The notes: generated by a model from the letters alone, not told the origin. Positions 8,763 to 34,185 are shown, numbered from the stretch's first letter. The stretch: DNA of 64,000 bases from Spironucleus salmonicida (GCF_000497125.1 NC_090598.1:1302001-1366000), one strand, 5' to 3'. Numbers and translations are program-made.

Positions 8763-9234
8763 TTTAAAGATGCGCTTTTTTCTTTTATTTCATATTATAT
8801 ATCTAATAATACTATTGTGTAATAGCTCTAAAGAAATCTATACATTATGATTACTATAGGACCTCATAATAATGAATTTATAAAATACTTCACGTTTTTC
8901 TTTGATTATTAATCTTCTTATCAAGTAGATCTTCGAAATTACTATGAAATTTTAATTTGTTTTGAATTATCAATCACCTGCTTATAACTTTCTTGTTTTT
9001 CATTTTTGCTATTATGATAAAAATAATATAAATTCTTAATACTTTATAGTAGCATAAGTATAGAACCCATATTTATCAGAATTAAATCAAAATTAGAAAT
9101 TCTATTTGACATAATATTAAAAGTAGAATAATGATTATTTGTGTTTTGTACTAAAATATAGAATTAATATGTTCAAATCAAAGTAATTGGTTAATAAATA
9201 CCAACCTTATTCAATTCATCAAAATAATCATTAA

Positions 9235-10071: not shown

Positions 10072-10073
10072 TT
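9319..10073 (+). repeat. Inverted repeat A, copy 1 (755 nt, GC-rich), partner 28917-29671
   Basis: Reverse-complement match; only one difference noticed (9747 T vs C, synonymous); the ORF track gives identical peptides for both copies. Confidence 0.95.
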
Positions 10074-13882: not shown

Positions 13883-14527
13883 TTTATGATCAAATTATTA
13901 ATAACCCATATATATAATAAAATATACCTTTTTATTTGATAACTATAAATCATGTAATTGTACTTATATTAATATTATCTTGTTTTGTCTAACTAAGTAA
14001 AACTTAAAAATATTATAGCATTCTGTTCGATTCAACATTATGAAATAGTACATCATATATTAGCATATAACTGATAATATAGTATCTTCCACAAAATAAT
14101 TAGCTTTAAGCAATATTATGATAACTAATAGTTATTAAGCATAAGACTATGTATTACTATAATTATGTTCAGTGAATAAATAAGATAATATTCTGTTAAG
14201 AAAATGTATAGTTTAATAATCAAAAGCAACAACAATTAGTATATCCCAATAGATAGTAAGTATAATTAATAATTTGTATAATGAAAGTATTTAACACTCT
14301 GGTTGTAAGTATTTTTTAAAATTATTACTTATAACATGATTGACTTAAAGTTTTGTTTTGAAATTATTGTTAAAAAATAACCAAAATCTTGGATAGACAA
14401 AGAATAATAAATTTTATTAATTATTGTATATACTTTATAAGTTTTATATATAATAATAATATTTATTCTTTATGTAATCTATATACAAATGGTAATGAAA
14501 AGCTCAGTTATAAAGTATTTTTATAGT

Positions 14528-14762
14528 CTTCCACCCTGAACAGTGGTCCCCCGCGGTGGGGTTCGGGCCCATCATCATTGGCCTGCAGAGCCTGTTCCAG
14601 GAGTACAAGGAGCGTGCGGTGGGCATGATATCGAACCCGTCGCAGTCCGAGATCAAGAAGTGCGTCGAGACGAGCCAGTCCTTCAGCTGCCCCAAGTGCG
14701 CCATCAGCCACGTGGGAATGTTCAAGGCGCCTGTGGAGAGCATTGAGAACAAGAAAGACTGA
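14528..14762 (+). pseudogene. 5'-truncated copy of the Ubc6/UBE2J E2 gene (begins just after the catalytic Cys)
   Basis: Matches the 3' part of 33670-34185 (FHPEQWSPAVG...IENKKD). The upstream frame hits TGA with no ATG, and the TPSGRF...C motif is missing. Confidence 0.8.
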
Positions 14763-14810
14763 TTTGAGAAATTACATTACTATACTATATCGGGACGATA
14801 CCTTTTCGCA

Positions 14811-15749
14811 ATGCCCAGGAAGACAATTCTGATGGCCTCGTCCGCCCGGGCCACCATCAAGAGTGACGTGCTGCAGTAGCTGCAGACCTCCTCGGCTATG
14901 TCACCGCGGGCCATGGGCTCCCCGCAGCACAACCTGCCCCCGACGCCACCCGGATTTCTGGCGAAGCACCCCAGCTTCAACCTCCCGATCCCCGTGGTGT
15001 CCTTCTCCCCGAAGAAGATCCTATCCGCGAGGGAGCTCATGGCGCCCACGTCCGAGGAGGTGTCCGACCAGCAGGAGGCAGAGGCTAAGTCCAAGTTGTA
15101 TCAGCTGGAGCGGTCCAACGACCTGCGGCAGATGCAGATCGACAACCTCGCCATAAAGAACCAGCAGCTTACGCAGAGACTGCAGGCGCTGGAGCGGCAG
15201 AGTAGTGAGCGAGCACCGCAGGTGGACAAGGACGTGCGCCTGGACGAGATCCTCGAGCAGAACATCCGCATGGAGTCCGAGCTGGCGATACTGCGCGAGC
15301 AGGTGCAGCACCAGAAGCCCCAGATCATCGAACATGTGAAGTACATCACTGAGAACAGCAACTTCAAGGCGCTGTACGAGCACGCCACGTCGCAGCTCGC
15401 CCACAAGGACCAGCTCCTCACCGACTACAAGATCGAGATCTAGGCCCTCAAGGAGCTCTTCGGCATCTCGGGGCTATCGTCCTCCGCTAGCCCCAAGGAG
15501 CGCGCCATGGCCATGATGTCCTACAAGGGCATCAAATCCGACCTGGTCGACATCCTGCAGCGCGAGGTGGCCGACCTTAAGGCGCAGCTCAAGGAGGTCT
15601 CCTCCCAGTCCGGCTCGGGGCTGTACCAGGCGCGCATCGATCTGTTCGCGGCCAGGGAGGAGATCAAGCAGCTGTCCTCGGACTTCGACGCAGCGAACGG
15701 CGCCTTTGACGAGTACCTGAAGATGGACATGCGACCCTCACTCAAGTGA
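14811..15749 (+). CDS. Hypothetical coiled-coil protein, copy 1, 312 aa
   Basis: MPRKTILMASSARA...; track ORFs 14898 and 15507 joined through TAG=Gln; ends AAG TGA. Confidence 0.8.
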
Positions 15750-16193
15750 TGCGAGGTGCTGGACCTGGTGCGACAGCAGCGCGAGGGCCCTGTCCATGGC
15801 GGCCAGCTGGGCTGGGAAGGGTGCGTTGCGGCTCATGACCTGGGTGACTAGGGCGTGGTGCTCCGCCAGCAGGTTCATCTGGCCCGTGTACGACGGCTAC
15901 ATAGCCATTTCAGCGTTGAGGTGGTCCAGCTGCTGCTCCAGATCGCTGGGCTGGGGGCCGTGCAGCTCAAATCGCGGGACCTTAAACGGTGCCGGCGAGG
16001 CTGACAGCTGCCCCGCAAGCGCGTCCGCCCTCCTCCTGCAGGTTGCAATCTCCGCCTCGATGCGCTCGCTGAGCATCTCACGCTCGGTCACCGAGGCCAG
16101 CCCTGCGGTTCCAGTGAACTTGAACTCTTTCACTTTACTAAGCTACTTAATTATGTCTGCAAAAGCTACTGCATCATGAACTATACTGCTCAT
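15738..16193 (-). CDS. Hypothetical protein 'X', full-length copy, 151 aa
   Basis: MSSIVHDAVAFADIIKQLSKVKEFKFTGTAG...HLASLE; ends GAG TGA, overlapping the neighbouring gene's end by 12 nt. Confidence 0.7.
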
Positions 16194-16289
16194 TATTTTA
16201 TTAACTTTACATATTTTAATATAATATTTTACTGTATAACTTGAGGCTAATCCGTGGCTAATTATATATAAAGTAAATTTTATCTTAAA

Positions 16290-17210
16290 ATGGATGCACT
16301 GCTCACAAAATACTAAAAGGAGCTGGAGCCTCTATCACAGCAGAGATTCTAGGAATTGGCTACATCGGAATCATCAGTATTATTTAACCAAAATCAATGC
16401 AAAAATCGCTACTCGAATATTATTCCTTACTCCCATTCCTAGCCGCCAGGCGAGTATTTTCACGGAAATTTCGTCAGCATAGGCGGTATTTAATTTTTTA
16501 TCACCCAGGCACCAGTAGATGCGGGTGACTTTTATGCAAAAATGGCACAGGTCCAGAGCACCTCTGTCATCTAAGTCACGAAATTTGCGGAGGGTGGAAT
16601 TCTGAAGGCCGAGCGGTACGTCCCATTGGCGACAGACGAGGACGTTGCAATAACGTAGAACGCTATTTTAGCGGACAGACTCTCGCTGGCGATCAAAGCG
16701 CAGCAGCAAGGCTAGCCTATGAAAACTGTCGAGGACTGCCTTCGAGCGGCCCCATAGAGGTTTGCATGGTTCCAGGATTCCTTTACCACTCCTTCTGGTA
16801 CAGTATCAGTCAAAAAATACGAATAAATCAACTCATTTTACAGATACTAGCTGGGTCTGGGGAACCAGACTTTGGATTACTACTACTTCCCGAACTGGTC
16901 GGACCAGTCGGCTCCTGACAACATGAAGGAGATATCATCCCTTTGTCACCACCTGCACGGTCAGACAAACCTAACGGTTCACTGCTCTGCAGGAATCGGC
17001 AGGTCTACTACTTTCTGTATTTGTTTTTATATTTTTGAGCAATTTATCAATAAAACTACAAACAAATCTACAGATTCTTGGAACAAACTACCAATAAATA
17101 TATTTGATATAATAGAAAATTTCAGAAAAAACCGTCACCCGTTTTGCGTTTAAACGATCGAGCAGTTCAAGTTTATTCTCGAATTTTGCGAATTTTGCGA
17201 CTAGAAGTGA
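16290..17210 (+). CDS. Classical protein tyrosine phosphatase, 306 aa
   Basis: KNRYSNIIPY, FITQAP, WSD loop, VHCSAGIGRS, Q-loop VQTIEQF (first Q is TAA); ends AAG TGA. Confidence 0.92.
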
Positions 17211-17219
17211 CGAATTTTC

Positions 17220-20200
17220 TCACAATCTGCCAGTGAACTTCAGGGCCAGCATCACAGCAGTTGCCACGACGATCGTGATAAGCAAAACCGAGCCGAGGCT
17301 AATTCCGAAGATCTCGGCTGGTGTGAATTAGCTTTCTGCAGGCTGGTGCAACGTTATCAACGTGCCCTGCAACTGCGTCTGACATGTGCAGACAATTTGA
17401 GTCGGGAGGTTTTTCTGTGTGCAGGAATTTGCCGCTGGTACTTAACCTAAAAGTGTAAACGAGAACGAATTTTGCGAGTTAACCGCTCCACAGGAGCCAG
17501 TTGTCTGCTAAAATATGACCTCTGTGGTTGAAACAGCTTGTACGAAGACGTAATTTTATGAGGAAATTAGGAATTTCAGCGACTGGCCATCTACCGAAAT
17601 TGGGAACTTTTGAGAAGCTGTGGATCGTGACGACGAGAAAATCGTTACAGAAACTGTACCAAAAGAGTAGCTTAATTGAACATTTGTGAAGAAAAAGTTC
17701 GAAATTTAAATGGACTGATTTGGAGAAATAAAAGAATTCTGGAAGTTAAAGCCGTTTTAGTTTATGGGAATGGCGTTATAAATAGCCTATATTTCTGTAT
17801 CAGAGAAGCTTTATGCGTTGTTTTTATGGGCAAAAATAGCTTGAGTTAGGATTTGTGGTATTATTCTGTAAAATTACATCCAACTTTCAATAATATTATT
17901 GTTCAATTCTTTTTTTAAATTATCAATAGATGTATTTATCCTATAAGTGATAGCTAACTAGCTAGACACATTGGTGATCGGTATATCTAAATAATTTGAG
18001 TAGCATCTAACTGTACAGTTGATAAAAGTATTAAAGATTAAATTAACAATAGGTTGGTTCCCTTATATGAAAGCTTATCGCGACAATTTTTATATTACGA
18101 TTCGTTTTTGTTAACTAGGTAAAGCTAAAAATTATGTCTATGTGGTTGGCAATACTAACTCTACTATATTAATAGCTGATGTTTTCGTATCACATTCACC
18201 AGATATTAAACAATACGTTATCATTACCGGAGAATTTAAAATAGGTTAAAATGCATAAGCCGGCTACGAATTCACAGAAATAAGATTTGCTGGTATTTAA
18301 ACATTATTAACATCTAAACATTAAATGGAATATGTTGATTATGCTATTAATTATACTAAATTATGTATATCATATTCGGAATTAGCAAAATTGCAACTTG
18401 CCGCAATAAATAAATTTTTTATTGGTAAAACCATAACTCTATATTAATCTTGGCTACCTAAATAGAAAATATTAATTAAACATTAAGATGGATCAGGATT
18501 TGGACCCATATTTATATTTGTAAATTTAATTGTAGTTGATGTGAATTCATAACAGTTATCAACAGATGCTTATAATAGTGCTCCTGATGGTATAATATTG
18601 TAATTAATATTCAAGCCACTGGGAACTTAATTATTAAGCCTATCTGTACTAACCCAGGTTGTTAGTATAATATCAAGAATAATATTTAAAGTGAATGAAA
18701 TCTATGATAATATTTAAGTAATAACTGTTGTGCAAACTGTTTAATAAGAAACACTAATATCATATATTCCTACTTTCCCATTCTATAAATCACATGTATA
18801 TTAAGCAAAAGTAGGAGATGCTGATCCCACTATTTAGCAAAGTAATTTTCCGTGAACTGCATTAATCAATTAAACTGTTTGTATCTATATATTGGTATAA
18901 GTAAATAAGAGATTAATGATTTACGTTGTTGGAAGTGGAATACCAGCTGCACTAATAGCAGGTATCGCGGTAAATGATAATGTATGAGGAGAAAACTAAG
19001 TTTCTATACTTTACTAATAATTTAAGCAAGAATCCCAAGTCAAATTAATTTTTTCTCCTTCTATTGTAGGTCCAATTAAACTCTAACAAATCTATGGAAC
19101 ATTAACAAATTAAAATGGAAATGAATCCACTGTAATACCGCATGTGATAACTATTCCAGGCTATAACTAAAAAATACTATTAGTCTTATCAATGAATACT
19201 ATAAGTTTCTATAGATTAGTGCACTAATATGTAAAATCAGTTAGGGTATAGTTTTATACTTTAATTTTATAGAATCCACCTGGTTTATTATTAAATGTTA
19301 AAATATTAGCCGCAAATATATATCCATCTATTGAAAATCCAACTTCTGGAACTACTAAATCTAATATATTTCCCGCGGTCGTTAGACAATTTTGTAATTC
19401 TAGATCATTAACTTATGCTATATGCCTATTATTGGCTTAATCAAATGTAATAGGTAACTAGACTGCGATTGAAAATGCTAAATTTTAAAAAAATATATTG
19501 TTCACACCTTAGTTAAAGCAAACATCATTATATACTACTTTCAATCTTAAAAATGAATTTGCTGGTAATACAGGAATTGAAACATTAAAGAATGCAAATT
19601 AACCACCTGTGTGCATGCTAGAAGGAATCGCCTAACCAATTGTGGTAAAACTAGTCTAACCTAATTATAAAGATTATAACTCAATATTTGCAGATTATAA
19701 CCCATCAAAAATAACTCTAGTACCAGATAACTTAATTGTATTGACACAATCTGTGCATGAAAGCAATATATCAGAACTATAAATAATATCTCCGATTGTA
19801 AAGTTAATAATTTAATTTGCATAATTAGTGCCTAATATATCATTTCCACTGGTGAGCAAAGCCTAATTATAATTTGGTTGGCCCTAAATCATTTAATTCA
19901 CAAAAGGAATACCAAATAACATAAATTCTATATTTTAAAGAACTTAATTGCACACATAATTTTAAGGTATATTTTATATCCTAGATGTAACAAATGGTAT
20001 AGCTGTTTCTAATAATTATTAAGGTAATACATCTGCTGTAAATCCTGACATAACTGTGAAAAATTCTTTATAGTTTATAGGAATATTTGATATCATAAGA
20101 CCATTCTTACCTTTGGGATAATAACGAAGTGTTGTGTTGATTATTTCGCAATTATCTACTAGTTAAAAGTCTGTACACTTTATTTTCGGATCTGCAAATG

Positions 20201-20279
20201 TAAATGACACAATTGGCGAGGGACCTTAGGACTGATCAATTATTGCAGTTGCAGCTACTGAAATTACTAAAGCCAACAT
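17220..20279 (-). CDS. Large type I membrane/surface protein, 1019 aa
   Basis: N-terminal signal MLALVISVAATA; beta-rich, Cys-containing ectodomain; C-terminal TM IFGISLGSVLLITIVVATAVMLAL with short tail KFTGRL. Frame spot-checked. Confidence 0.8.
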
Positions 20280-20410
20280 TTTATTCTAAAATTAAAAATA
20301 ATAATATAATATATTATTTAAAAATATACCTGAACCCAATATTAATAATATATCTAAGGTATAAATAACCAATCATCGACTCTCTCTACAATTTATACTA
20401 ACTCAATTAA

Positions 20411-20917
20411 ATGCCACATTTTTATCGCTATCTTTCCCCCTAAGAAATAGAATTTTTCCATATCAGAAAGTCAGCTCATTTTGTGACAACTAGAAAGATG
20501 ATATTCCGTGTGAAAAACCATAAAGTTACAATCCCGGCTGGTTTTATAGCGGATGGAGTTTTTGTAGAAAATTAAGACTTTCTGTCATCTCCTGCATGGT
20601 TCTGCTTTGAATTTTTGTATGCTAGTCATAAATATGATGATAAAATAGCAGATAGAGGAGAAATCGATCAATTCATGTTCAATAATTATAGTGATATTAT
20701 CACAGTTGTAAATGATGAATTAGTTATAGATGGGGTCCGGATTAGTGGAAGCGATATATTTTAAGAGAGTATAGAAAGAGGAGTTTGCGTTTGTTAAGAT
20801 ATTATAAGGGAAATAAAAATAAATGACTAGAAAATAGATTGGATGAGGATTTGTTGTGCAGGAGTATGTTTAAGTGGAATTGGAGTTGGATATGGAATCA
20901 GTTTAATAATTAAGTGA
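20411..20917 (+). CDS. DUF1353-like protein with C-terminal membrane anchor, 168 aa
   Basis: VTIPAGFIADG...SPAWFCFEFLYASH...DRGEIDQFM resembles the DUF1353 'VP.GF.TDG...A...HD.LY...R.eaD' pattern; hydrophobic C-tail; ends AAG TGA. Confidence 0.65.
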
Positions 20918-20924
20918 AAAAAAT

Positions 20925-21530
20925 TCAATTCTATAATTCGTGTAAATAGTTTTTTACAAAAAGAGGATTTTGCTTTGGAACGTCCAACTAAAGCTTAAAT
21001 AACAAATTTGATAGATTTTCATGAACTCCTAATAGCTGTTAATAATAGTCATAATAATTTTTATAATTTAAAATTATTTCTGATTGAAGTGAATTTTCTA
21101 TTATTTATGCTCTTATTACAGATTATCTATCAGAATTATTTTTAGTTAATGCTATTCCACCTTTTTCAATAAGTATTTACAATTCTAAAAGTGGTACTAT
21201 AGCAGCAGCTATGCGTCTTCTAGAAGCTCCAGCAATTAATGTTAAATTATCTCTAGACTTTGGAAGCACTGGTATAGACTAAAACAAAATAGCATGTATC
21301 GAAGTCTTAGCTCTTTGAGACAAATTGTTAATATCTAAGTTTTATATCAACTATTGATTAGTTTATGCATGTAGTATAATCTGTGGAAAAAATGACTATA
21401 ATTATACTGCATTTTAATGCAACGTTTATGTGGATATATTATTAGGTTATATATCGTCTAAAGAATTTTATTTAAAGGTTATTGGATCAAAATATATGTT
21501 TGGAAACTAACTAAGGTGGCATAACGACAT
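20925..21530 (-). CDS. Hypothetical protein, 201 aa, possible winged-helix (E2F/DP-like) segment
   Basis: Open frame MSLCHLSQFP...; SRDNLTLIAGASRRRIAAAIVPLLELQILIEK. Confidence 0.55.
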
Positions 21531-21610
21531 TTATTATCATCGTAACCTTAGTATAAAAATAAGTCAAATAATTTATAAGTCTATTATATGTTTATTTATA
21601 TATTATTAAA

Positions 21611-23715
21611 ATGGAATAATTGATTGATGTTGAAAGATATTTTCATCACTAAATTGATTAGAATTTTTACTCATATTCGTTTAATAAAGCATATTAGTAT
21701 GATTAATTAGGAAATTTGTTATAGGAAAACGATGTAATATTCCCTTTTTACCCTAATAGTCCAGTATATAGTTATACCACCTAGTTATTTGCAGGTATTT
21801 ACTATGCTTTGGTTTAAAATCAGTTATTTTCTTTGAATAAATTAAATGTTATTCGCATATTTGACTTTAAAATACTTTAGTAAATAGAAAGTTCTCCATT
21901 TAATGTTGCCGTGGCAAATGATAATATTTTCTTTGCAGTGGGTCATAATTTATATTGTAATATAGACAATAATTATAGTTTAATGAAAGTTTACGAAAAT
22001 AATATTTAAATTTTTGCTGATGCAAATGACGTAATAGTATTTGATGATTCAAAAGCGTATTCTTATAGAACCGATCTTATGTTTTGCATCGATTTAATAT
22101 AACCAATTTATAGTAGACCAGGATTTATATTAGGACTTTATAAATAGCATCATGTTTTTATTAAACTTCAAGACGGATTTGATGTAATTACACTTACTGA
22201 TAATATATAAATAAAATTCATTATAAATGAGTATAAAATTACAAATTTACAATCATAGTTTTTATTAAAAAAAAGAGAAGTCATTGATTTGAGTGCATCT
22301 ATGTTTGATATTGCATAAACATCATTTAATTAGCTTTTGTTTTATAGATAAGTTGATCTAAATATATTAGAGGTTTTAAACAAATAAGACTAGCTTTACT
22401 CATTTTTATATTTCTTAGATTAATTTTAAGATAAAAAATAATATGAATATCTTTGTGATCGCCTAATGACAAAGGGATTGTCGGTTAACATAAATTTAGA
22501 GAAAAGTTCTCCTCTATTTTTAACCTACTAAGTTTTACATTGTTAAGACAATTAGTTGGAAATATTAAAAAATGATATGAATTTTATTACAAAATTTGAA
22601 GATGGGTTATGTTAGGTAAATTTTAACATAATAAAGAAACTTTTAATCTAAGTGATAAAACTTTAAAATTAGGTATTAACTAGCTAGATTGTGCATAGAT
22701 TTGCACACAATAATGAATTAGAAGAATTAGAAGTACTAATTTTTTAAGTGCAGGATTTAATTTTATTTAAATGTTATTTTGATCCAATTATTTTACGTTA
22801 ATGTAATGACACATATTCATCCAAACTTATTGTTCAACTGTTTTAACATTCATTTGAATCTGCAGTGGAGTCTGTCGCAAATATAACTATATGGGCTGAG
22901 AATTCACCATTAATATTAGCAGCCTAGTCAGGTAACTAGTACTATGTTTAAAAATTTATCAATATCGATAAGAGAAATGGGCATATAGCACTAAAAGTAG
23001 CTAAATCAATTAAAATAATTGATATGCTTATACCTAATTTTTCAAAACTAGTAAATTATTAACCTTAATCAACTAAATTAATGGAATTAGTATAATCAAA
23101 TACTCTTAACTAACTTTTATATAAAGATGTATTAATATAGAATTAAGCAGGAATATAAGATTAATCTGGAAATTATGCATCTAATATAGTTATAAATAAT
23201 TAATACAAAATATTAGAGTATAAGAATTTACTTACTATTGAGCTGAAACTCTTTCATTCATAATAAATAATGAATATGAAAATTTCACCATTTTATTCAA
23301 TATAACTTATTAAACTTAAGTTTTAATCCACACCAGCATCATTACAATTATATATTTTAAAGCAATTAGATGATCCTTAAAATGCAATGGATTTTTTTAA
23401 TTTATAAACGGATGTGTTTGGAATGTCTTTAAATTTACATACATTAGATTCTAAAACTGCTGATATATTTTGTAGAGATAATGCAAGATACCATACTCTG
23501 GTTACTTTATATACTAGATAATATTTTAAAACTTCAGCTGCTAAGTTTCATGGCAGCTTTAATTTTAATTAATAGATTATAGAGAATGTGTTGGTTCAAG
23601 ATTTATTTTAGGTGCTTGAGCATCAAAGGAATCTATAGCCATAAGATAATATTCCAGACTAGTAGATTGTGAATATAGTGTTTAATAATTTCCATGTAGA
23701 TGAGAGTTCTAATAG

Positions 23716-23752
<37 letters not shown>

Positions 23753-23848
23753 AATGATATTTATTATGAAGAGCAAAATTTTGATACCGATGTAGAAGAT
23801 TTCGGTAGTTATGATGAAGGATCTTATTAAAATGATAAGTATTACTGA
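21611..23848 (+). CDS. Ankyrin-repeat-containing protein with acidic C-terminus, 745 aa
   Basis: SPLILAAQSGN...GHIALKVAK and AGIQDQSGNYAS degenerate ankyrin repeats; poly-Asp tail; frame spot-checked. Confidence 0.7.
23720..23752 (+). repeat. (GAT)11 coding microsatellite (poly-Asp)
   Basis: Eleven tandem GAT in frame in the 21611-23848 CDS. Confidence 0.9.
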
Positions 23849-23855
23849 AATTTAA

Positions 23856-25961
23856 TCACTATCTGCCTCCATATCCAACTAAATAGTCCCCTGCACCTAG
23901 ATCTTTAAGCCATTAAGAATCTAACATGTCTTTGCATCTTTTTCGCATATTTGGATTTAGGTGAAGAAATGGCTTTATAAATTTTTCTATATCTTCTGCT
24001 TCCCCTTAATCAAATCCATAGTCAACCACTAAAATAGTTGAAATTGCACGGAATTCCAAATTTTTAGTGAATTTAAATTATTTTTATTGAGTTTCTAAGG
24101 ATATTTCTATTAAATTTTCATTCTAGCAATTTTCTAAGAGCCAATCCAAGCCTTGGTCACCTGAAATTTAAACTATCTATTTGAGGTGATGAGATGGATC
24201 TTGCTTCCCATCTTATCTTGGCCTAAATAACACATTTCCTGTAATCAGTTCAAATACAATACACCCAACAGAAAAATCATCTACTTCTGGTCCATATGCT
24301 TCATGACCAATAATAATTTCTGGCGCTCTGTAATTTGGAGTTTGTATTGTCTTAGAAAATCTATAATCTGTGTAACATGCATTTCCTAAGTCAATAATTT
24401 TTATTTTAAACATTTCTAAGCAAAACGGAATAAGTTGTTATTTTGAATAGTATGATATCATGGTAGGATATATTTACTGTCCACTTGTGGTTAATCCATA
24501 ACATTTTATTTCATCAGGGGTTATATTTTTAGGTAAGTCTAATTCTTTTTACTTTAAAAGTGGATTAATGGGTTAATTGCTAATTTATTTTTCTTTTTAT
24601 GCAACACTCTAATATAATTATAGTCTTGAATGGAATCCAGATCTTGCAATTTTAACTAAAGTTTTGGTTGAGTAAGAATCATATATAATCCGTTCTACAC
24701 ATGATTAATGTAAAATCTGTTGAAGGTTATTATCAATAATATTTGATAGTTAGTAAGTTATTCCATTGCTAGAAATAAGCTGCTTTAAATTCTATTTAAG
24801 ATATTTCGATTCAACTAATTTGAGTTGTTAATAAAGATTAAAATTTTCAACAGTCTCTCCTTTCACAATAGAATCAAATACTTGCTTAGTAGAAAATAAA
24901 TTAACACAATTTTATTCAATTTTTATTTCTTGATCATAATCTTATTAAAAGTTTTTTGGAAGAATTTAAGCTCTAAATATCTCTTCAGACGTCTTTATTA
25001 AGTTAGGCAAATTGAAAATATTCATACCATCAATACAATAACACTGTTATTCAGTAGATACTTCGGCTTGGCCATATTTTTAAATAAATTTAACGAATTT
25101 TTTCTTAAAATTTGTATTATCCATTATTGTGTTTCTTATAACTTCCCATTAGTAAATCCCCTAACGCTAAGCCCTTAAATGTAAATAATTACAAATCTAT
25201 GACTGATTTTACTTATCCAAAAGATCAAAATCGTTGATATTTATCGTCGTTGCAGGTGTGCTTAATTTTGCATCAAAAATATGCTGACTCTAAGCTCCAT
25301 ATAGAATATTTTCTAACTTATAGTCAGTATCATTCAAAAGTGGCAAATAATAAACCATTGCTAGATTTTCTGGTTTAAGGTCAGTATGAATAATATTTGC
25401 AATGTTATGCAAATAATGAACCGATTTTAGTAAATTATAAGAGATTGCCTTAACTATTGGAAGCGGAATAGATTTATTATAGTTAACTTTTGGAGAATAT
25501 CTTGTCATAAGGCGATACACACTATGCCCTAATAGCTCGAAAACCATGCAATAATAAAATTTTTCTGTCTCTTCACAGTCATCATCAAAAACGTCAGCTA
25601 TCTCTTTTTTAGAGTATACAAAATTGTCTAAAAGTTATACGATGCCACCATTATCTTCGAGTTTTACTTGTTAACATTTATCTTATATTTATTTTAATAT
25701 ATCTACTTCATCTTTTGATATTTACTAATCCAGTTCAGATATATTTATTTTTAATGCCACATATCTATTAAAAGTAATATCTTTTGATAAATATACCGTC
25801 GAAAACCGACCATTAGCAATTTTGCGTAAAGGTATATAAGTAGATTTATCACTTTTAAACTCAGTTTCAAATAATTACAACCAACAATATCCATTATCAT
25901 CGTATCTGTCGGTACTTTCATCAATTTAATGATGAACAGATAAATTTTGATATGACGGCAT
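23856..25961 (-). CDS. SRPK-family (CMGC) protein kinase with long spacer insert, 701 aa
   Basis: GRFSTVYL, CMVFELLG and IIHTDLKPEN, then several hundred aa of spacer, then KIIDLGNAC and IQTPNYRAPE: the bipartite SRPK layout; ends TAG TGA. Confidence 0.9.
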
Positions 25962-26018
25962 TTTAATTGAAGTAGTATTAATACTATATATTGATATAAA
26001 ACGAATTATTAATATAAA

Positions 26019-27185
26019 TCAATCTACTTTTGTAATTAAATGTCTCTTGTAGTTTTCTTACATAACTTCTTGTTTTTTCTTATTAAAATAAATTTTTATC
26101 TTTAAGTCATAGTAATCGTTTAGTGGTTAAATTAAAATATACAATAAATTCGCTAATATACCACTATTAAAAACTAACCCCGTTAATAATATATTCTCTA
26201 CTACTTGATTATAAGGTCCTATTTCGGCATTTTGTTATAAATCTGTATAAAATTAATATATCATTTATTAGCTCATATAACAATAAGATGATTTCCATGC
26301 AAAACAATACTTTATTATATAATTTGTAGAGATTCTTTCCCAAAGCACAGCTTTACCACCAATAATAGTATAAATGATTAATGATTAAACGACCGCAAAC
26401 ACTAATGTCGTTATATGCATATAAGATTTCCATAAATAGTATGAGCAGCATAATAAAATTGTTAATGTAATACAGACGAATAGAATAAGATCTCCTTTGT
26501 ATGTTAATTTATCTAGGTAGAAAAATATTTTATTAGGTGGAAACTTTACTCTATTTAACTGATTTTTTGTCTTAATTTCAGAAATATCTACACAGTAATA
26601 CCGATAGCCTATCATAACTCCAAAAAGATATACATATAAATAATTTTATAAGGCAATACCTTAAGTATTTGGAGAAAAAGTACTAAAAACAAACATGAGA
26701 ATTGTGAATATAAATATATATTACAATTTTTTCTATTTTTTGTAAATACATGAATAAAATAGTACTAAACTAAAATACGCTTAAATTTCTACGCAACTGA
26801 CTGTTATAAGAAATTTATTAAAAGGAATTTCAATATAATTACTAAGTAGTAGAGACTAGAATATACATTACTTCATAGTTAAACTATTAAAAACATAATT
26901 ACCTAAAGATATAAATAACGATATAAAGAAGTATTCTTTAATTTTTTATGCTAATAAGTAAAATATATCCACTTTTAAAGATAATCTTTCAATAATACAT
27001 TAATAATCAAGAAAACCTTATACAATCAACTAGATAACAATAAAAATATTTTCACCAACTAAAAAAATAGACTATTCTTCTGTAATGGCCTAAGTAATAA
27101 CAACATTTTTCATATATTTATATGAGCAGGAAAATAAACCAAAAATAAGGAAGCCAGATTAATAAAATAAATATGAATCTGACAT
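26019..27185 (-). CDS. Multi-pass transmembrane protein, 388 aa
   Basis: ATG at 27185 is in frame with track ORF 26385-26615; many hydrophobic segments; TGA at 26019. Confidence 0.7.
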
Positions 27186-27233
27186 TTTATATATTAAAAT
27201 TATTAGTATTATATACTTAAAATAAAATAATTT

Positions 27234-28802
27234 TCACATCATAAACATATTCTCTTCATATTTATCTGTATAGCCATGATATTTACCATCATCTTTGTAA
27301 GAATCATGGCCTTGATATTCAGACTACATTTCAGATTTCCAATTATTTCTATCTTCTCCTAATTAAAAATGGCTTCTTCTAAGTTAATTAACCATGTCTT
27401 AGTTGACACGCTCACTAGATCCTATTGCATCTGGTTTAAAAGCGGCTTAGTTTTCAGTCTCATAACTATTCCTCTCATCACTTTTTAACATAACATCACT
27501 TCTCCAAAGTTGATTGTTTATAGGTTGTGCTAGTTTCTTGCCTGCAAATTATACTGAATCTTATAGCATTGCTTAAGTCTATGATATGTAATTATTAGTT
27601 AAACTCGGATCCATAAGCTATACAGACGATCTACCATGAGCTAAAGCTTCTAAATGGAATTTTGCTCTTTCTTCTTAAGCTTCTTTAATCATTTAGGAAT
27701 TAGGTTTGTACTACATCATAGTTTCAGATTAACCATCTCCACGCTCAGATGACATTTTTTAGGAATTAGGATCAGTTGGCTTAGCCATAAATTTTCTAAT
27801 GTTTTCTGCCTCTTTTTAATTAAATTTTACTTATGCTGCATCAACAAGTCCCCTATAATTATCACGCATTTCTGATATTCTCTCTTTTTATTTTTCAGGA
27901 TAGCAAACATGTTCTTAAGTATTTTCATACGCAGGTTTGACTGAATCTGATGCCTTAATTCCATCTCTACCAGGAAATGCAGCGCTCATCTCTGTCACAC
28001 CATAAAACTATCCATCTTCAGCTACTGGTAAATGAGATGCCCTGAGATATCTTTCTCTAGCTTTTTATGCATCAATATCAATTAAGTCCCGAGGTTTTCC
28101 TGCAACTTCGTTAAGAGCAGTTTGCGTTGAAGAAATTCCCATTTTAGATAAACCATCTTCTAGTTCAATATGAGACTTTTAAAATCTTCTTAAATCATAA
28201 GTCTCCTTTTCTACATTTGGTTAACCTTAATAATTTGCAGAGCACTCAGTTTAATATGTATTTTTAGTACCCTCATCAATAGGGATAGAACTTGTTCTTA
28301 AATTCATTGATTTTTACTCTGGTTTTTCATAATCCCTCTTAAAATATGCAGCCGAATTTTCAGTAATATAAGAATTAGGATCATTTCCTAACCCAAAATG
28401 AGAACCTTAAAGATTTTTAGTGAGAGGTTATCTAGCATAAGTACCATCTAACCTACGATAATCAGCCATATTTTATGTTTCCATGACAGGTGCATCGTAA
28501 CCTAATTTATTAGAAATATTATCTCTAAGACCATGAAGATTTACAGCCGCAGAATAAGTCTCACCTCTTTTAGGTTAATATTCTTCTTAAGTTTCGGAAA
28601 TTCCAGTTGGCATATTTGATCCTTACACCAAAGAAAAATGTGACTTTCTTAAATCTGCCTTCTTATCCTCTGACATATTTGCTTTAGCTTCTTTAAGATC
28701 ATATTAGATAAATGTATCATTGTAAGTAGAGCTACCAAACTTAGCGTTATCGGCGACTTTAATATGAGAACGTTGCAACTTAGCAGTATTAATATTTGAC
28801 AT
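27234..28802 (-). CDS. Repeat protein resembling SAXO5/TEX45-type microtubule-stabilising proteins, 522 aa
   Basis: Recurrent L-x-x-S-H-F-x-L-G-x-D units (LQRSHIKVAD, LRKSHFSLVQG, LQGSHFGLGND, FQKSHIELED, LRASHLPVAED, LRRSHFQLGED), each followed by S/T-x-x-x-x-x-Y/F. Confidence 0.7.
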
Positions 28803-28916
28803 TATTTAAGGTGAATTGCGGACAAACAATTATTCCTATATTTATATATAATAATAATATTAGTACAAAATAGAATGTTCTTAAATCATATATATTTTGT
28901 AATAAATAGGAATATG

Positions 28917-29671
28917 AATCACATATTTTCGAAAACCTGCTCAAAACGGTCGAGCAGCTTCTGGCTTATCTGCTTGAGCTGGCGTATCTCTTTCTTGAGC
29001 CCGTGCCCTTGAATTATGAGGTTCCGCTTCCGCTGGTCGTTGAAAACCTAGCTGCACGAGATCTCCAAAAAGCTCAGGTTCCGGCAGAGCCCTTTCCCGG
29101 GTTCGTCGTCGTCCTGCACTACTGGTTTGACCCAATCTTCGCAGTCGCTCTCGTCCTGCTTCACGGCGGCGTTGAGGTAGGTGATACGCTCCAGTAGGAT
29201 GTCCCGCTCGCGCTCGACCTTCACCAGCTGCGTCTTGTACTCGATCTGCGTCCTGACCAACTGCTACTGGAGCTTTCCCTGCTCCTGGCAATAGAACTGC
29301 ACCAGCCAGCTCTTCTTCAGTTGGTTAGTGAGGCGCTTCCGGCCCAGCCGCTGAAGCTATTCCTGACCCTCCTGGCAGTCCCCAGCGCTGATACTAGGAC
29401 CCCCTTCGTACTTCCATAGCAGCGTCATTATCTCCAGCTCGCCGTTCTCTGCCGCTATTTCTATCGCCAGCTTCTTATTCGCGGTCTTGATGCCGGCCTC
29501 TAGCTCGGCCAGTACGTGCACGCACTCGTAGAACCCGTGTTTTGCGGCATAGTGCAGCGCGGTGAATCCGTTTGACGATGTTTTAGCTGCCAGAAATGGA
29601 ATCAGCAGTTTCACGACGTTGATATTGCCGTACTAGGCAGCGTAGTGTAGCGCAGTTTTTTGGGCTGGTAT
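28917..29671 (-). repeat. Inverted repeat A, copy 2 (755 nt)
   Basis: Reverse complement of 9319-10073. Confidence 0.95.
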
Positions 29672-29755
29672 TGACGTAATATCTACCATTTTAAGATTAT
29701 CTTTTATAAAAAAGATGTCATTATCAATAGCTGCTTATAAAAATTGATTTGGCAT
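28919..29755 (-). CDS. Ankyrin-repeat protein, copy 2, 278 aa
   Basis: MPNQFLQAAIDNDIFFIKDNLKMVDITS, then identical to copy 1; same 837-nt length. Confidence 0.88.
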
Positions 29756-30622
29756 TTCGTAGAGAAATGTATTTTAAATATTATATAAAATTATTAATAC
29801 TAGGATTTCATTTATGTAATATTTAGCTTTATTGCGATAAATTTATAATTGCTTATATTATTATTAATTTTAATTATAGGACTTAAAGTATTCTTATATA
29901 TTTTGAGATACATTTTATAATAATTCTTTCAGATAATTTAAAAAATTTAATTCATGAATATTTCACAAAATTATCTCATATATTAACTTTTTCTCTAGTA
30001 CGCAAAAACTATATTTAGTATAGTTAAGATTAATGTTCATTCTAAAGCGTATAAAGATAACGCTAGAAATTTAGTGTAACATTGAAAATTGTTAATATTT
30101 TGCGCTAATATTTAGTTGAATAAAACTTATTTTTAATAAGATAAAAATTTACCAGAATTTGAAATATGTATTTTCAATATTAACAATATAATATTTTTAC
30201 ATTAATTACTATTATAGAATGTATGATAGTACAATTTAATATTATGTTGCTATCTACTTTAAAATATTATTGATAATTTTATCAATGTAATATTAATCTG
30301 TTTCACCTTTTATATGAATTATGCATTATCATAAAAATTTCAATTAAAATTAGTAGATAAGTTCATTAAGTAATTAAAATTATTTTCACAACTCTTAATA
30401 ATGTTGGATACCAAAAGGGTTTATACATTCCAATTAAAATTAATAATTCAAATTTTAAAACGATACAAATTATATAATCACCATATTTTATATTCATTCA
30501 TAGTGAATAATTTAACTGCGTAATTAATATTAATTTGCTTAAAATAAGATATAGATTATTTGATAAATATGAGTATTAACGACAAATTATTGTTATATTC
30601 TAAATAGAAATAAATTCATCTA

Positions 30623-32182
30623 TCACCATTACTCCATTTATTTTTCTAGTTCTCTAAGTTTTCTTCGTTTTTCTTCAACAGCATTTTCGATGTTTTATTT
30701 TTCACTTCCCAGTCCATTAACAATTCGTCTAGCCCCCTCTAACTCAGTTTCTTTAACGCGAACACGCGCTTGTACTCTTTGAAAATCTCGTTCTAGAGCT
30801 AAAATTCGTCGCTCTCTCTAATCTAATGTTTCGGATAATGCTGATACTTTGGCTGCATTTAATTCTGCCTTTTATGTTTAGTCTCTTAAATCCCGTTCCA
30901 ATGTTACTCTTTAATTGTTTAAGGCATTTTCAAACTCGTTTAACTTAACATTTTTCTCTGTTATTTAATCACTTAAATCTTATAATTATTCATTTTAACC
31001 TTAAAGCTATGTTTTCTATAATTCCATCTCGCTTTTTAAACGTGCTTATTCTTTAACAAGCGTATTATTTTGTACTTACATTTAATTCTATACAGACGAC
31101 TTTTAATCTTCATTTTGTGATATCTAGTCCATCCGTTTCCTTAAAATATTTAACTCCTATACGTTTTCCTTCTCAGTTTTGACGGTTTTTGAGTCTTTGT
31201 AGAGAGGCCTAATTGGAGCACTATTCTGACGCTGTCTGACACCACTAAGAACTTTCAATTCCTTCATAAAATTTTTTGATTTCTGTGCCTGCTGAGCTGC
31301 AGCTGCGAAGTCCAAAATTGACATCTTGTTCAGCTTGTTTTTGATATTTATTTTTTCTGCCTCAGCGGAAACATCAGGATTCCTAACCTTCTACTTGAGC
31401 AAATTTACGAAAATTCCGCAACGTGCAATCGCCAAAAGCTTCTTTCTAATGACGTCTTTTTTGTCCATTTTCATGTTCCTGAGCGCCAGATTCTGCTCCA
31501 AACAGCGCTCCAGATAACAACAGGTATCGGCCTGTTTCTGCTTTAAAAGCTGATGCTTAGTACTCATTTCCAGAAGCTCCTGACTGGCCAATTTGCAGGC
31601 CTGTAGAATGTCCTTAACGCCATTTCCGGCCTCGAACGCCTTCTTGGCAATGCGTTCGTTGTCGGAAATCAAGTTTTTGCACTTCGCGGCGAGCGAAATG
31701 ATGTCCTTCTCCTTATCGCTGATGCATCCCTCCTGAAGCGCGAGCTTTTGCGACAGAAGCCTGTTCCGCTCGGCCAGGATCTTGATCTCCTACACAGTGT
31801 CACTTTGGCGGTTCTGGTTAACATAGTTCGATTGCAGCGCACTGGTGAGCTGGTGTTTGTAGTTCGTGATCTGGTGCGACTGGGATTGGTTCTCCTACTG
31901 GAGGTAGTTGAGGATGTTCTGGAGCTTGTTAACCTGCTGGTTTACGAAAAGCTGCGACTGCAAAATTTGATTTTTCTGCGTAATTTCGTTGCCTAAGGCT
32001 TGCTCAAGTGCTGTAATTCTCGACTGGCCCTGTAGAGCCTAGAATTTGGCCATTTAAAGTTCCACTGTTTAGTTTTTGACGTTGTTAGCTAAATCCTGCA
32101 GTTGTTACTGTTTTTTATTCATAAGTAACATTGATTCCTTATCTAACAGCTCAGCTTTTAATTCCAAATTTTCCACGTCCAT
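30623..32182 (-). CDS. Coiled-coil protein, 519 aa
   Basis: MDVENLELKAELLDKES...; in frame with track ORF 31391-31672; Q/E/K/L-rich heptads; ends TGG TGA. Confidence 0.78.
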
Positions 32183-32310
32183 TAAAATTTAGAATTTTAT
32201 ATAATAGTATTTAGTATATAATAAATATTCCTTCAGAAATCAATAAGATCTTGGGTTATGATACCTCTTTTTGAGGGAAGCTTCTAAAAATTATTGAGTT
32301 CAAATAGTTT

Positions 32311-32694
32311 AAGTTCACTGGAACCGCAGGGCTGGCCTCGGTGACCGAGCGTGAGATGCTCAGCGAGCGCATCGAGGCGGAGATTGCAACCTGCAGGAGG
32401 AGGGCGGACGCGCTTGCGGGGCAGCTGTCAGCCTCGCCGGCACCGTTTAAGGTCCCGCGATTTGAGCTGCACGGCCCCCAGCCCAGCGATCTGGAGCAGC
32501 AGCTGGACCACCTCAACGCTGAAATGGCGATGTAGCCGTCGTACACGGGCCAGATGAACCTGCTGGCGGAGCACCACGCCCTAGTCACCCAGGTCATGAG
32601 CCGCAACGCACCCTTCCCAGCCCAGCTGGCCGCCATGGACAGGGCCCTCGCGCTGCTGTCGCACCAGGTCCAGCACCTCGCATCACTTGAGTGA
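32311..32694 (+). pseudogene. 5'-truncated or decayed copy of gene X (15738-16193)
   Basis: Near-identical to X from KFTGTAG onward. The upstream frame has TGA at 32272-32274 and no ATG until 32356. Confidence 0.72.
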
Positions 32695-33621
32695 GGGTCG
32701 CATGTCCATCTTCAGGTACTCGTCAAAGGCGCCGTTCGCTGCGTCGAGGTCCGAGGACAGCTGCTTGATCTCCTCCCTGGCCGCGAACAGATCGATGCGC
32801 GCCTGGTACAGCCCCGAGCCGGACTGGGAGGAGACCTCCTTGAGCTGCGCCTTAAGGTCGGCCACCTCGCGCTGCAGGATGTCGACCAGGTCGGATTTGA
32901 TGCCCTTGTAGGTCATCATGGCCATGGCGCGCTCCTTGGGGCTCGCGGAGGACGATAGCCCCGATATGCCGAAGAGCTCCTTGAGGGCCTAGATCTCGAT
33001 CTTGTAGTCGGTGAGGAGCTGGTCCTTGTGGGCGAGCTGCGACGTGGCGTGCTCGTACAGCGCCTTGAAGTTGCTGTTCTCGGTGATGTACTTCACATGT
33101 TCGATGATCTGGGGCTTCTGGTGCTGCACCTGCTCGCGCAGTATCGCCAGCTCGGACTCCATGCGGATGTTCTGCTCGACGATCTCGTCCAGGCGCACGT
33201 CCTTGTCCACCTGCGGTGCTCGCTCACTACTCTGCCGCTCCAGCGCCTGCAGTCTCTGCGTAAGCTGCTGGTTCTTTATGGCGAGGTTGTCGATCTGCAT
33301 CTGCCGCAGGTCGTTGGACCGCTCCAGCTGATACAACTTGGACTTAGCCTCTGCCTCCTGCTGGTCGGACACCTCCTCGGACGTGGGCGCCATGAGCTCC
33401 CTCGCGGATAGGATCTTCTTCGGGGAGAAGGACACCACGGGGATCGGGAGGTTGAAGCTGGGGTGCTTCGCCAGAAATCCGGGTGGCGTCGGGGGCAGGT
33501 TGTGCTGCGGGGAGCCCATGGCCCGCGGTGACATAGCCGAGGAGGTCTGCAGCTACTGCAGCACGTCACTCTTGATGGTGGCCCGGGCGGACGAGGCCAT
33601 CAGAATTGTCTTCCTGGGCAT
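32683..33621 (-). CDS. Hypothetical coiled-coil protein, copy 2, 312 aa
   Basis: Differs from 14811-15749 at 3 residues seen (L/V, S/T, F/L). Confidence 0.8.
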
Positions 33622-33669
33622 TGCGAAAAGGTATCGTCCCGATATAGTATAGTAATGTAATTTCTCAAA

Positions 33670-34185
33670 TCAGTCTTTCTTGTTCTCAATGCTCTCCACA
33701 GGCGCCTTGAACATTCCCACGTGGCTGATGGCGCACTTGGGGCAGCTGAAGGACTGGCTCGTCTCGACGCACTTCTTGATCTCGGACTGCGACGGGTTCG
33801 ATATCATGCCCACCGCACGCTCCTTGTACTCCTGGAACAGGCTCTGCAGGCCAATGATGATGGGCCCGAACCCCACCGCGGGGGACCACTGTTCAGGGTG
33901 GAAGGCTGTAAAAGAAAAACAAATATTCGTATTTGTTTCAAACCGTCCCGAAGGGGTAATCATGCGTACATGAGGTGCTCTGAACGGATATTCTTTTGGT
34001 AATAATAACTAACCATGATATGCACCACCTTAATATTCAGTATTTAGAGGACCTCTAACCGAAAAATGAATATCTAACATATTATCTTTATCAGGTATCC
34101 AAATCTTATAATTAGGATCATTTGCTTATTATACTGCCTTAAGTTAACGCATTATAATTTTAGGGTTTTCAGGTAAGTCAGGCAT
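33670..34185 (-). CDS. UBC6: Ubiquitin-conjugating enzyme E2, Ubc6/UBE2J family, 171 aa
   Basis: HFSVRGPLNTEYQGGAYHG, YPFRAP and TPSGRFETNTNICFSFTAFHPEQWSP, the UBE2J-type signature. Confidence 0.88.

What the first reader, a model, noticed from the sequence alone, without database searches (positions are those of the whole stretch)
14528..33904. Near-identical inverted repeats are sharp GC islands whose borders cut through genes: candidate GC-biased gene-conversion system
Seen: both repeat pairs are GC-rich (39/60 at 15001-15060; 36/60 at 33781-33840), while unique sequence is AT-rich (20/60 at 34021-34080 in the same UBC6 gene; 4/60 at 14401-14460). In UBC6, gene X and the ankyrin genes, third-codon positions switch from A/T to G/C, and Gln from TAA to CAG, close to where repeat identity begins. 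The promoter-like spacer inside the repeat (14763-14810) stays comparatively AT-rich. Inference: a fresh duplicate of AT-rich DNA would be AT-rich. These copies therefore look old but repeatedly homogenised by ectopic conversion with a strong GC bias, so that duplication status rather than gene identity sets base composition.
Basis: partly seen in the sequence, partly recalled or inferred. Interest (0 to 1): 0.85.

Follow-up and report, generated by a model that had tools for sequence, protein, structure and literature searches.

The report
GC-rich gene-conversion tracts in Spironucleus
In this AT-rich fish-parasite genome, stretches that are kept nearly identical between gene copies are sharply GC-rich, which fits a known process (GC-biased gene conversion between duplicates) acting here with unusual strength and sharp edges.

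Summary
The window is 29.7% GC, reads TAA/TAG as Gln, and protein names place it in Spironucleus salmonicida. It holds two inverted repeat pairs: I1 (14519-16141 / 32291-33913) and I2 (9233-10073 / 28917-29757). Maximum-likelihood GC change-points fall within about 20 nt of the identity borders at 7 of 8 borders.

Two results favour old copies homogenised by conversion over fresh duplication.
- In I2, 20 of 21 mismatches lie in the AT-rich first 86 nt. The GC step sits at 9317, where near-perfect identity starts (9319), not where homology starts (9233).
The CHY-RING gene (5760-7187) is 43% identical to a paralogue, except for a patch of 102/102 identical residues (6522-6827). That patch is its GC3 peak, and read-derived contigs show it in two copies.

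The GC bias itself is inferred and not polarised. GC-elevated islands without a detected partner also exist (PTP, the 1019-aa gene, coiled-coil gene, 55901-56610), so duplication is not the only determinant.

The 2022 genome paper already reports duplicated regions at 44.7% GC against 30.7%. Ectopic GC-biased conversion is a known kind. I read this as a new, extreme member of it.

The parts
14519..16141 (.). I1 arm A. GC 0.61. Near-perfect core 14528-16121 with 7 mismatches.
32291..33913 (.). I1 arm B, the inverted copy of arm A.
9233..10073 (.). I2 arm A. It equals the ankyrin CDS (ATG 9235, stop at 10071). Edge 9233-9318 is AT-rich and diverged (20 mismatches). Core 9319-10073 is GC-rich with 1 mismatch.
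28917..29757 (.). I2 arm B, the ankyrin CDS on the minus strand (28919-29755). Homogenised core 28917-29671.
33670..34185 (-). Intact UBC6-like E2 gene (171 aa, UQ_con). Codons upstream of 33913 have GC3 0.10-0.30. Codons inside the repeat have GC3 0.85-1.00.
   Evidence: RNA-derived contigs cross the border.
14519..14762 (+). 3' fragment of UBC6 (from FHPEQW to the stop) in arm A. A TGA lies at 14496-14498 and no N-terminal half lies upstream, so this is a truncated copy.
14811..15749 (+). Gene X copy A (312 aa, no Pfam family, GC3 0.90), wholly inside I1.
32683..33621 (-). Gene X copy B (312 aa, 99.0% identical to copy A).
15738..16193 (-). Gene Y copy A (151 aa ORF). Its first 17 codons lie outside the repeat with GC3 0.25. 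This exact sequence is not in the protein collection.
32275..32694 (+). Gene Y copy B. The frame opens only after a TGA, the first ATG is at 32356, and the N-terminus is lost or different.
6522..6827 (-). Conversion patch inside the CHY-RING gene (5760-7187). It covers aa 121-222, which are 102/102 identical to paralogue P0002 whose flanks are 43% identical. GC3 is 0.85-0.95. Read contigs show a second copy.
16290..17550 (.). GC-elevated sequence (GC3 0.5-0.7) over the PTP gene (16290-17210, plus strand) and the C-terminus of the 1019-aa gene (17220-20279, minus strand). It abuts I1 arm A and is single-copy in read contigs.
31411..32050 (-). GC island (GC3 up to 0.90) in the coiled-coil gene 30623-32182. 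It abuts I1 arm B and no partner was found.
55901..56610 (-). GC island (GC3 0.5-0.9) in the gene 54946-56598. No paralogue was found in the near length range.
43821..44360 (+). Weaker island (GC3 0.5-0.75) near the N-terminus of the 1867-aa gene. Copy number was not tested.

Best explanation
Paralogous segments on this Spironucleus salmonicida chromosome repeatedly exchange sequence by non-allelic (ectopic) gene conversion. Where conversion still happens, the copies stay about 99.5-99.9% identical. A repair or fixation bias towards G/C has driven those tracts to about 55-61% GC (GC3 about 0.83-0.9), against a genome-wide AT mutation pressure that holds unconverted sequence at GC3 about 0.24.

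Tract edges are set by where usable homology ends. Outside an edge the copies diverge, which blocks further conversion. Edges therefore sharpen and can lie anywhere, including inside ORFs.

Truncated gene pieces inside a tract, such as the UBC6 3' fragment in arm A, are carried along.

What is shown:
- the repeats
- the coincidence of identity and GC steps
- the mosaic identity of old paralogues
- two copies in read-derived contigs
- transcripts crossing a step
- native code-6 usage in the GC tracts

What is inferred:
- that the mosaic arose by conversion
- that the bias acts on AT/GC mismatches (or as GC-biased repair mutagenesis)
- that the process is ongoing
For: 1. GC change-points fall within about 20 nt of identity borders at 7 of 8 repeat borders. 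The eighth has a support interval (33902-33994) that includes the border.

2. I2 carries an internal control. Both arms are the same ankyrin CDS. Of the 21 mismatches, 20 lie in 9245-9318 (AT-rich, GC3 0.2-0.35) and 1 lies in the 755-nt core (GC3 0.55-1.0). The GC step is at 9317, not at the start of homology at 9233. Intergenic flanks show no residual homology: 214/300 and 242/300 shuffles reach the observed score. The duplicate is therefore old.

3. CHY-RING against paralogue P0002 gives 250/448 identical overall, but 102/102 over aa 121-222 and 148/346 elsewhere.
- The patch (6522-6827) is the GC3 peak.
- DNA contigs of runs X1 and X2 end at 6609 and restart at 6795.
- A second contig differs at 6558, 6570 and 6579 only. 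All three are third codon positions by my arithmetic on the gene frame.
- Summed depth is 267 against about 175.

4. The shift is not confined to silent coding sites.
- GC1/GC2/GC3 are 0.586/0.361/0.833 inside tracts (1433 codons, both arms counted) against 0.344/0.261/0.237 outside (14393 codons).
- GARP residues are 22.3% inside against 12.1% outside.
- Gln codons inside are CAG 102, CAA 7, TAG 13, TAA 0. Outside they are TAA 862, TAG 312, CAA 219, CAG 138.
- The one non-coding spacer inside I1 is 33% GC, against 0-27% for 9 of the 10 other spacers; a 9-nt spacer also reaches 33%.

5. One mRNA carries both compositions. RNA-derived contigs of X5 and X6 run from the repeat into a loose end that equals the arm-B UBC6 flank.

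6. Both arm variants at 15467, 15488 and 15519 occur in DNA contigs at about equal depth (109 against 113). Collapsed repeat contigs have depth 215-285 against 144-178.

7. Genome-wide, duplicated regions (at least 2 kb, at least 95% identity) average 44.7% GC against 30.7% for the rest, with normal long-read coverage at the two largest duplicated regions (PMC9509377, passages).
Against: - No substitution was polarised, so the GC bias is not demonstrated.
- GC-elevated islands occur without a detected partner. PTP and the C-terminus of the 1019-aa gene lie in one unbroken DNA contig (16092-23708) at baseline depth.
- For the coiled-coil island (GC3 up to 0.90), the near-length search found only the protein itself. 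In the representative search, none of the 8 other hits was near-identical over the island. The best other hit was 30% identical, and a 69-aa hit was 67% identical but over aa 447-513, outside the island.
- The 55901-56610 gene found only itself.
- I1 has abrupt edges and no diverged margin beyond about 20 nt. On its own, I1 would also fit a recent copy of an already GC-rich segment.
- The CHY-RING island (6341-7010) is wider than the identical patch.
- A published review argues that in grasses ectopic conversion does not raise GC, and that high GC may itself raise similarity (PMC3924838, passages).
Confidence: 0.7

Rival explanations
1. Reverse causality. GC-rich tracts arise first for another reason, such as allelic or inter-nuclear recombination hotspots with GC bias. 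Being recombinogenic, they are then preferentially duplicated or converted. Duplication would be a consequence, not the cause, of GC richness.
For: Single-copy or partner-less GC-elevated islands exist: PTP and the 1019-aa gene, the coiled-coil gene and 55901-56610. Two of them directly abut the inner borders of I1. A review raises the same caveat for plants.
Against: It does not explain why the GC step in I2 coincides with the start of near-perfect identity (9319) rather than with the gene or the start of homology. It also does not explain why the intact UBC6 gene changes composition exactly where its partner fragment begins. Some GC-biased process is still needed.
Confidence: 0.13
2. Recent segmental duplication, or insertion of a GC-rich cassette (mobile or foreign DNA). 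On this view the repeats are young and their composition reflects their source.
For: The I1 borders are abrupt. The flanks show no residual homology: 30/300 and 31/300 shuffles reach the observed score. Each arm holds one truncated border gene.
Against: - GC-rich ORFs read in-frame TAG as Gln: 13 TAG inside tracts.
- The tract is in frame with the AT-rich half of UBC6 at the homologous codon.
- Genes X and Y have no transposase or other mobile-element domain.
- The diverged edge of I2 and the CHY-RING mosaic cannot come from a fresh copy.
- Neither arm has both border genes intact, so neither is a simple parent.
Confidence: 0.08
3. Selection on codon usage, mRNA or translation in amplified, well-expressed genes makes duplicated genes GC3-rich.
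For: The effect is largest at third codon positions. The promoter-like spacer is less GC-rich than the coding sequence.
Against: - The composition changes within single genes and single transcripts: UBC6, ankyrin and CHY-RING.
- The truncated UBC6 fragment is equally GC-rich.
- GC1, GC2 and amino-acid content shift too.
- The spacer inside I1 is among the two GC-richest of the 12 spacers measured; the other is a 9-nt spacer with the same value.
Confidence: 0.05
4. Assembly artefact: the second copies, or their identity, were produced by assembly or polishing.
For: The DNA runs laid may come from the same sample as the assembly, so they are not fully independent.
Against: - Read-derived contigs carry both arm variants at similar depth and break at the repeat borders.
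- RNA-derived contigs of a second study carry arm-B-specific variants and the arm-B flank.
- The paralogue P0002 has accessions from an earlier protein set.
- The paper reports normal long-read coverage at the two largest duplicated regions.
Confidence: 0.02

Closest known systems
GC-biased interlocus gene conversion in duplicated genes and segmental duplications: mammalian histones, Hsp70 and avian HINTW (seen only as reference-list entries in PMC3924838), and human segmental duplications (PMC10172114, abstract and passages).
   Same: Paralogous tracts are kept similar by conversion, and duplicated DNA has higher GC than unique DNA. This is attributed to GC-biased conversion between paralogues.
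   Different: The amplitude is far larger: about 24% to 83% GC3, and 18% to 57% GC across one border. For comparison, analysed human SD regions are 42.4% GC. The edges resolve to about 10-20 nt inside ORFs. The host is a diplomonad with genetic code 6, and the tracts are only 0.3-1.6 kb long.
Arm-to-arm conversion in palindromes and inverted repeats (primate Y-chromosome palindromes, plastid inverted repeats). Recalled, not checked in any call.
   Same: Inverted copies on one molecule stay near-identical by intramolecular conversion. The inverted orientation avoids deleting the sequence between them.
   Different: The arms here are short (0.84 and 1.6 kb), with long spacers (18.8 and 16.1 kb). 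The two pairs are interleaved (I2A, I1A, I2B, I1B) and not nested. A dispersed paralogue patch (CHY-RING) shows the same effect, so palindrome structure is not required.
The published S. salmonicida genome description (PMC9509377, Sci Data 2022; passages read).
   Same: It reports that 19.2% of the assembly is duplicated and that duplicated regions average 44.7% GC against 30.7% for the rest. It mentions gene conversion for the regions around cysteine-rich membrane proteins.
   Different: In the passages I read, it gives no tract-level analysis and no link between identity borders and GC steps. It offers no GC-biased-conversion explanation. Its 2-kb threshold would miss all three tracts described here.

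Membership tests
Ectopic (interlocus) gene conversion / concerted evolution | Mosaic identity: a tract far more similar between paralogues than the adjoining homologous sequence. | tested here: met
   CHY-RING is 102/102 identical in the patch against 148/346 in the flanks. I2 has 1 mismatch in the 755-nt core against 20 in the 86-nt edge.
Ectopic (interlocus) gene conversion / concerted evolution | Identity holds at the DNA level and at synonymous sites, not only in the protein. | tested here: met
   I1 and I2 were compared directly as DNA. For the CHY patch, the second read contig differs at 3 sites only, all third codon positions, and contigs break at 6609 and 6795.
Ectopic (interlocus) gene conversion / concerted evolution | Paralogues group by species, not by orthology, when compared with related species. 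| not tested
   No DNA or gene sets of close Spironucleus relatives were available. Hexamita inflata homologues are only 46-49% identical.
GC-biased gene conversion (gBGC) | GC elevation confined to the converted tract, affecting silent and non-coding sites. | tested here: met
   Change-points. GC3 is 0.833 against 0.237, and the spacer in I1 is 33% GC against 0-27% for all other spacers except a 9-nt one that also reaches 33%.
GC-biased gene conversion (gBGC) | Excess of AT-to-GC over GC-to-AT substitutions inside tracts, polarised with an outgroup. | not testable with these tools
   No outgroup DNA and no whole genome were held. Among the 7 core mismatches of I1, 5 are AT/GC differences, but their direction is unknown.
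GC-biased gene conversion (gBGC) | Skew of the allele-frequency spectrum, with AT-to-GC variants at higher frequency. | not testable with these tools
   No population data were available.
Recent segmental duplication | Uniform identity along the copy, and composition equal to that of the source locus with no step in the source gene at the breakpoint. | tested here: not met
   Identity is non-uniform in I2. The intact UBC6 gene has a GC3 step at the border. Neither I1 arm has both border genes intact.
Mobile element or foreign (horizontally acquired) island | Mobility genes or terminal structures, and foreign coding conventions. | tested here: not met
   Genes X and Y have no Pfam mobility domain. 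In-frame TAG is read as Gln in the GC-rich ORFs. The tract is in frame with the host UBC6 gene. Terminal repeats and target-site duplications were not looked for specifically.

The most novel reading that the evidence does not exclude
In S. salmonicida, a tetraploid flagellate in which (from recall) sex has not been observed, an exceptionally strong GC-biased repair acts on recombination heteroduplex that may be mitotic.

Base composition would then be a base-pair-resolution record of each locus's history of ectopic recombination. The partner-less GC islands would be decaying footprints of lost partners or of hotspots. The process would also push protein composition, with GARP residues nearly doubled in tracts.

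The standard equilibrium formula GC* = 1/(1 + kappa*exp(-B)) is recalled, and the arithmetic on the values is mine. With it, GC3 of 0.237 outside and 0.833 inside imply a scaled bias B of about 2.8.
Probability: 0.35. Interest if true: 0.7.

Novelty: new member of a known kind. Interest (0 to 1): 0.55.

Why it matters
gBGC is mostly studied as a weak by-product of meiosis in animals, plants and yeast. Here its presumed footprint is extreme (GC3 about 0.2 to 0.9) and has sharp edges inside genes, in a diplomonad with very low reported heterozygosity.

If confirmed genome-wide, three things follow:
- It would explain the published but unexplained GC excess of duplicated regions in this genome.
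- It would give a natural system for measuring conversion tract lengths and bias.
- It would warn annotators and phylogeneticists that GC-rich, codon-atypical segments in this genome are not foreign DNA or expression-driven codon bias, and that paralogue trees are mosaic.

Tried and rejected
- Whole-genome test: no genome is held for this window.
- Earlier notes of this scan: none for this genome or these words.
- Partner search for the coiled-coil island. The near-length protein search found only the protein itself among 7999 scored candidates. The HMMER search of 1.84 billion representatives gave 9 hits, none near-identical over the island. Unannotated fragments, and fragments merged into the same 50% cluster, would be invisible.
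- Partner search for the 55901-56610 gene: only itself.
- The 1867-aa and 1740-aa neighbours are paralogues only about 30% identical. They are irrelevant to conversion.
- Residual homology outside the repeat borders: none above the shuffled controls.
- RNA: the look-up of sequencing runs listed no holder on record as RNA. X5 and X6 are RNA by the tool's guess, which is supported by poly(T) and adaptor loose ends at gene ends. I did not rank genes by depth.
- Read laying covered only 5500-25499.
- Odd joints were not pursued. These are 5500/23116, 5935/22423 and 7360/14446, plus a contig joining 16239 to 13063 with 13 letters between. They have short sides in AT-rich sequence.
- Papers. The 2014 genome paper has no occurrence of 'GC-rich', 'gene conversion', 'codon usage' or 'GC3'. 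No paper in the library holds both 'biased gene conversion' and 'Spironucleus'. Supplements were not opened.


Full report
**What the window is**

The window is 29.7% GC. Long ORFs exist only if TAA and TAG are read as Gln (table 6).

Its proteins sit on a 1,815,816-nt contig. Near-identical or paralogous database entries are named Spironucleus salmonicida, and Hexamita inflata is the next relative. No whole genome is held for the window.

**The observation**

Two inverted repeat pairs exist:
- I1: 14519-16141 and 32291-33913, 1623 nt, 16 mismatches
- I2: 9233-10073 and 28917-29757, 841 nt, 21 mismatches (mismatch counts)

In 50-nt bins, arm-to-arm identity goes from 11-19/50 to 48-50/50 at 14519/33913, and GC rises in the same bin.

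| Border | GC change-point | Identity border |
|---|---|---|
| I1 arm A, outer | 14526 | 14519-14527 |
| I1 arm A, inner | 16109 | 16121 |
| I1 arm B, inner | 32324 | 32311 |
| I1 arm B, outer | 33988 (support 33902-33994) | 33913 |
| I2 arm A, core start | 9317 | 9319 |
| I2 arm A, end | 10055 | 10073 |
| I2 arm B, end | 28936 | 28917 |
| I2 arm B, core start | 29677 | 29671 |

All change-points are maximum-likelihood estimates. Only 0.17% of 1623-nt placements in the window reach I1's GC.

**Gene anatomy**

I1 holds three things:
- the last 81 codons of a UBC6-like E2 gene
- all of gene X (312 aa, no family)
- most of a small convergent gene Y

In arm B the E2 gene is intact: 33670-34185, 171 aa, UQ_con, and present as this exact protein in the collection. 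In arm A only the 3' fragment exists, behind a TGA at 14496-14498.

Gene Y is the reverse. Arm A has an ATG at 16193. Arm B opens only after a TGA and has its first ATG at 32356. Neither arm is therefore a simple intact parent.

In the intact E2 gene, GC3 is 0.10-0.30 for the five 20-codon blocks before the border and 0.85-1.00 after it.

I2 is exactly the ankyrin CDS (ATG 9235 to the stop), and both 278-aa proteins are in the collection.
- Gene X has no internal switch.
- The outer borders of I2 do not cut a gene.
- The second gene cut by I1 is gene Y.

**Are the copies old and homogenised, or fresh?**

Two results decide this.

First, in I2, 20 of 21 mismatches lie in 9245-9318. The remaining 755 nt have one mismatch. 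The diverged edge is AT-rich and the homogenised core is GC-rich. The GC step (9317) sits at the start of near-perfect identity, not at the start of homology at 9233. The intergenic flanks retain no homology. Within one old duplicate, only the part that is still being homogenised is GC-rich.

The CHY-zinc-finger/RING gene (5760-7187, minus strand) has a GC island at 6341-7010 with no copy in the window.
- Its paralogue P0002, on a contig of the same length, is 250/448 identical overall. It is 102/102 identical over aa 121-222 and 148/346 (43%) elsewhere.
- That patch maps to 6522-6827, where GC3 is 0.85-0.95.
- Contigs built from public reads of the organism end at 6609 and restart at 6795.
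- A second contig covers the patch and differs only at 6558, 6570 and 6579, all third codon positions.
- Summed depth is 267 against about 175.

This is the classical signature of a conversion patch between old paralogues, and it is the GC peak.

**Reality of the copies**

DNA contigs break at 9319/10073, 14528-14557 and 16092-16121. Collapsed repeat contigs have depth 215-285 against 144-178. Both arm variants at 15467, 15488 and 15519 are present at about equal depth.

RNA-derived contigs from a second study carry arm-B ankyrin variants. They also run from I1 into a loose end identical to the arm-B E2 flank, so one transcript carries both compositions.

The DNA runs may be the assembly's own sample. 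The genome paper reports normal long-read coverage at the two largest duplicated regions (PMC9509377, passages).

**Nature of the shift**

| Measure | Inside near-identical tracts | Outside |
|---|---|---|
| Codons | 1433 (both arms counted, so about half are independent) | 14393 |
| GC1 / GC2 / GC3 | 0.586 / 0.361 / 0.833 | 0.344 / 0.261 / 0.237 |
| GARP residues | 22.3% | 12.1% |
| Gln codons | CAG 102, CAA 7, TAG 13, TAA 0 | TAA 862, TAG 312, CAA 219, CAG 138 |

In-frame TAG shows that the GC-rich DNA is native and not foreign.

The only non-coding spacer inside a tract is 33% GC. Of the 10 other spacers measured, 9 are 0-27% GC and a 9-nt one also reaches 33%.

A process acting on all sites, resisted by constraint at first and second codon positions and at promoters, fits better than codon selection.

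**Limits**

- No change was polarised, so the GC bias is inferred.
- The GC-elevated PTP gene and the C-terminus of the 1019-aa gene (GC3 0.5-0.7) lie in one unbroken contig at baseline depth, so they are single-copy.
- The coiled-coil gene next to arm B reaches GC3 0.90, but no partner was found.
- No partner was found for the 55901-56610 gene either.
- Unannotated fragments, like the E2 piece in arm A, would escape these protein searches.

These islands may be decaying footprints of lost partners, may have partners elsewhere, or may reflect another recombination-linked process. Two of them abut the inner borders of I1. I note this but cannot explain it.

**Comparison with what is known**

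The 2022 genome paper states that 19.2% of the assembly is duplicated (at least 2 kb, at least 95% identity). It gives these regions a mean of 44.7% GC against 30.7% for the rest. It invokes gene conversion only for the regions around cysteine-rich membrane proteins (passages).

The 2014 paper does not mention the topic. No paper in the library pairs 'biased gene conversion' with 'Spironucleus'.

GC-biased conversion between paralogues is an established idea:
- human segmental duplications (PMC10172114, abstract and passages)
- mammalian histones, Hsp70 and avian HINTW (reference-list entries seen)

The same review reports no such effect in grasses and raises the reverse-causality caveat.

**Verdict**

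The phenomenon is conversion-tract-specific. It is not specific to inverted repeats and is not the sole source of GC islands.

It is a new and unusually extreme member of a known kind, and the genome-wide correlation is already published. Confidence in ectopic conversion with a GC bias is 0.7.

Noticed in passing
window 9233-10073, 14519-16141, 28917-29757, 32291-33913: The two inverted pairs are interleaved (I2A, I1A, I2B, I1B), not nested as in a palindrome. A crossover within either pair would invert a segment that contains one arm of the other pair, so flip-flop isomers are conceivable.
   Followed up: no
window 16239 and 13063: DNA contigs of X1 and X2 join 16239 to 13063 with 13 other letters between them (table 5c). 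This could be a structural variant, a copy elsewhere, or a chance match in AT-rich sequence.
   Followed up: no
window 43472-49075 (+) and 49594-54816 (-): Two very large tail-to-tail genes (1867 and 1740 aa, no Pfam family) are ancient paralogues, about 30-32% identical at both ends. Only the first has a GC-elevated N-terminal stretch.
   Followed up: partly
window 27234-28889 (-): A 551-aa protein without a Pfam family carries a recurring motif of the form (R/K/G)SH(F/I/L)xLG about five times (read by eye from the translation). It may be a repeat protein of the cytoskeleton.
   Followed up: no
window 5750 and 11863: RNA-derived contigs end in poly(T) loose ends. The one at 5750 is about 10 nt beyond the stop of the minus-strand CHY-RING gene (stop at 5760), which indicates a very short 3' UTR.
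   Followed up: no
window 9276-9318: In the RNA-derived contigs of X5 and X6, only the arm-B type of the diverged ankyrin 5' edge was seen. Contigs drop rare variants, so this does not show that the arm-A copy is silent.
   Followed up: no
window 13187-14056 (-): An ORF with a weak SHIPPO (sperm-tail PG-rich) repeat hit (E 7e-4), next to RING-finger genes at 11925-13325 and 5760-7187.
   Followed up: no
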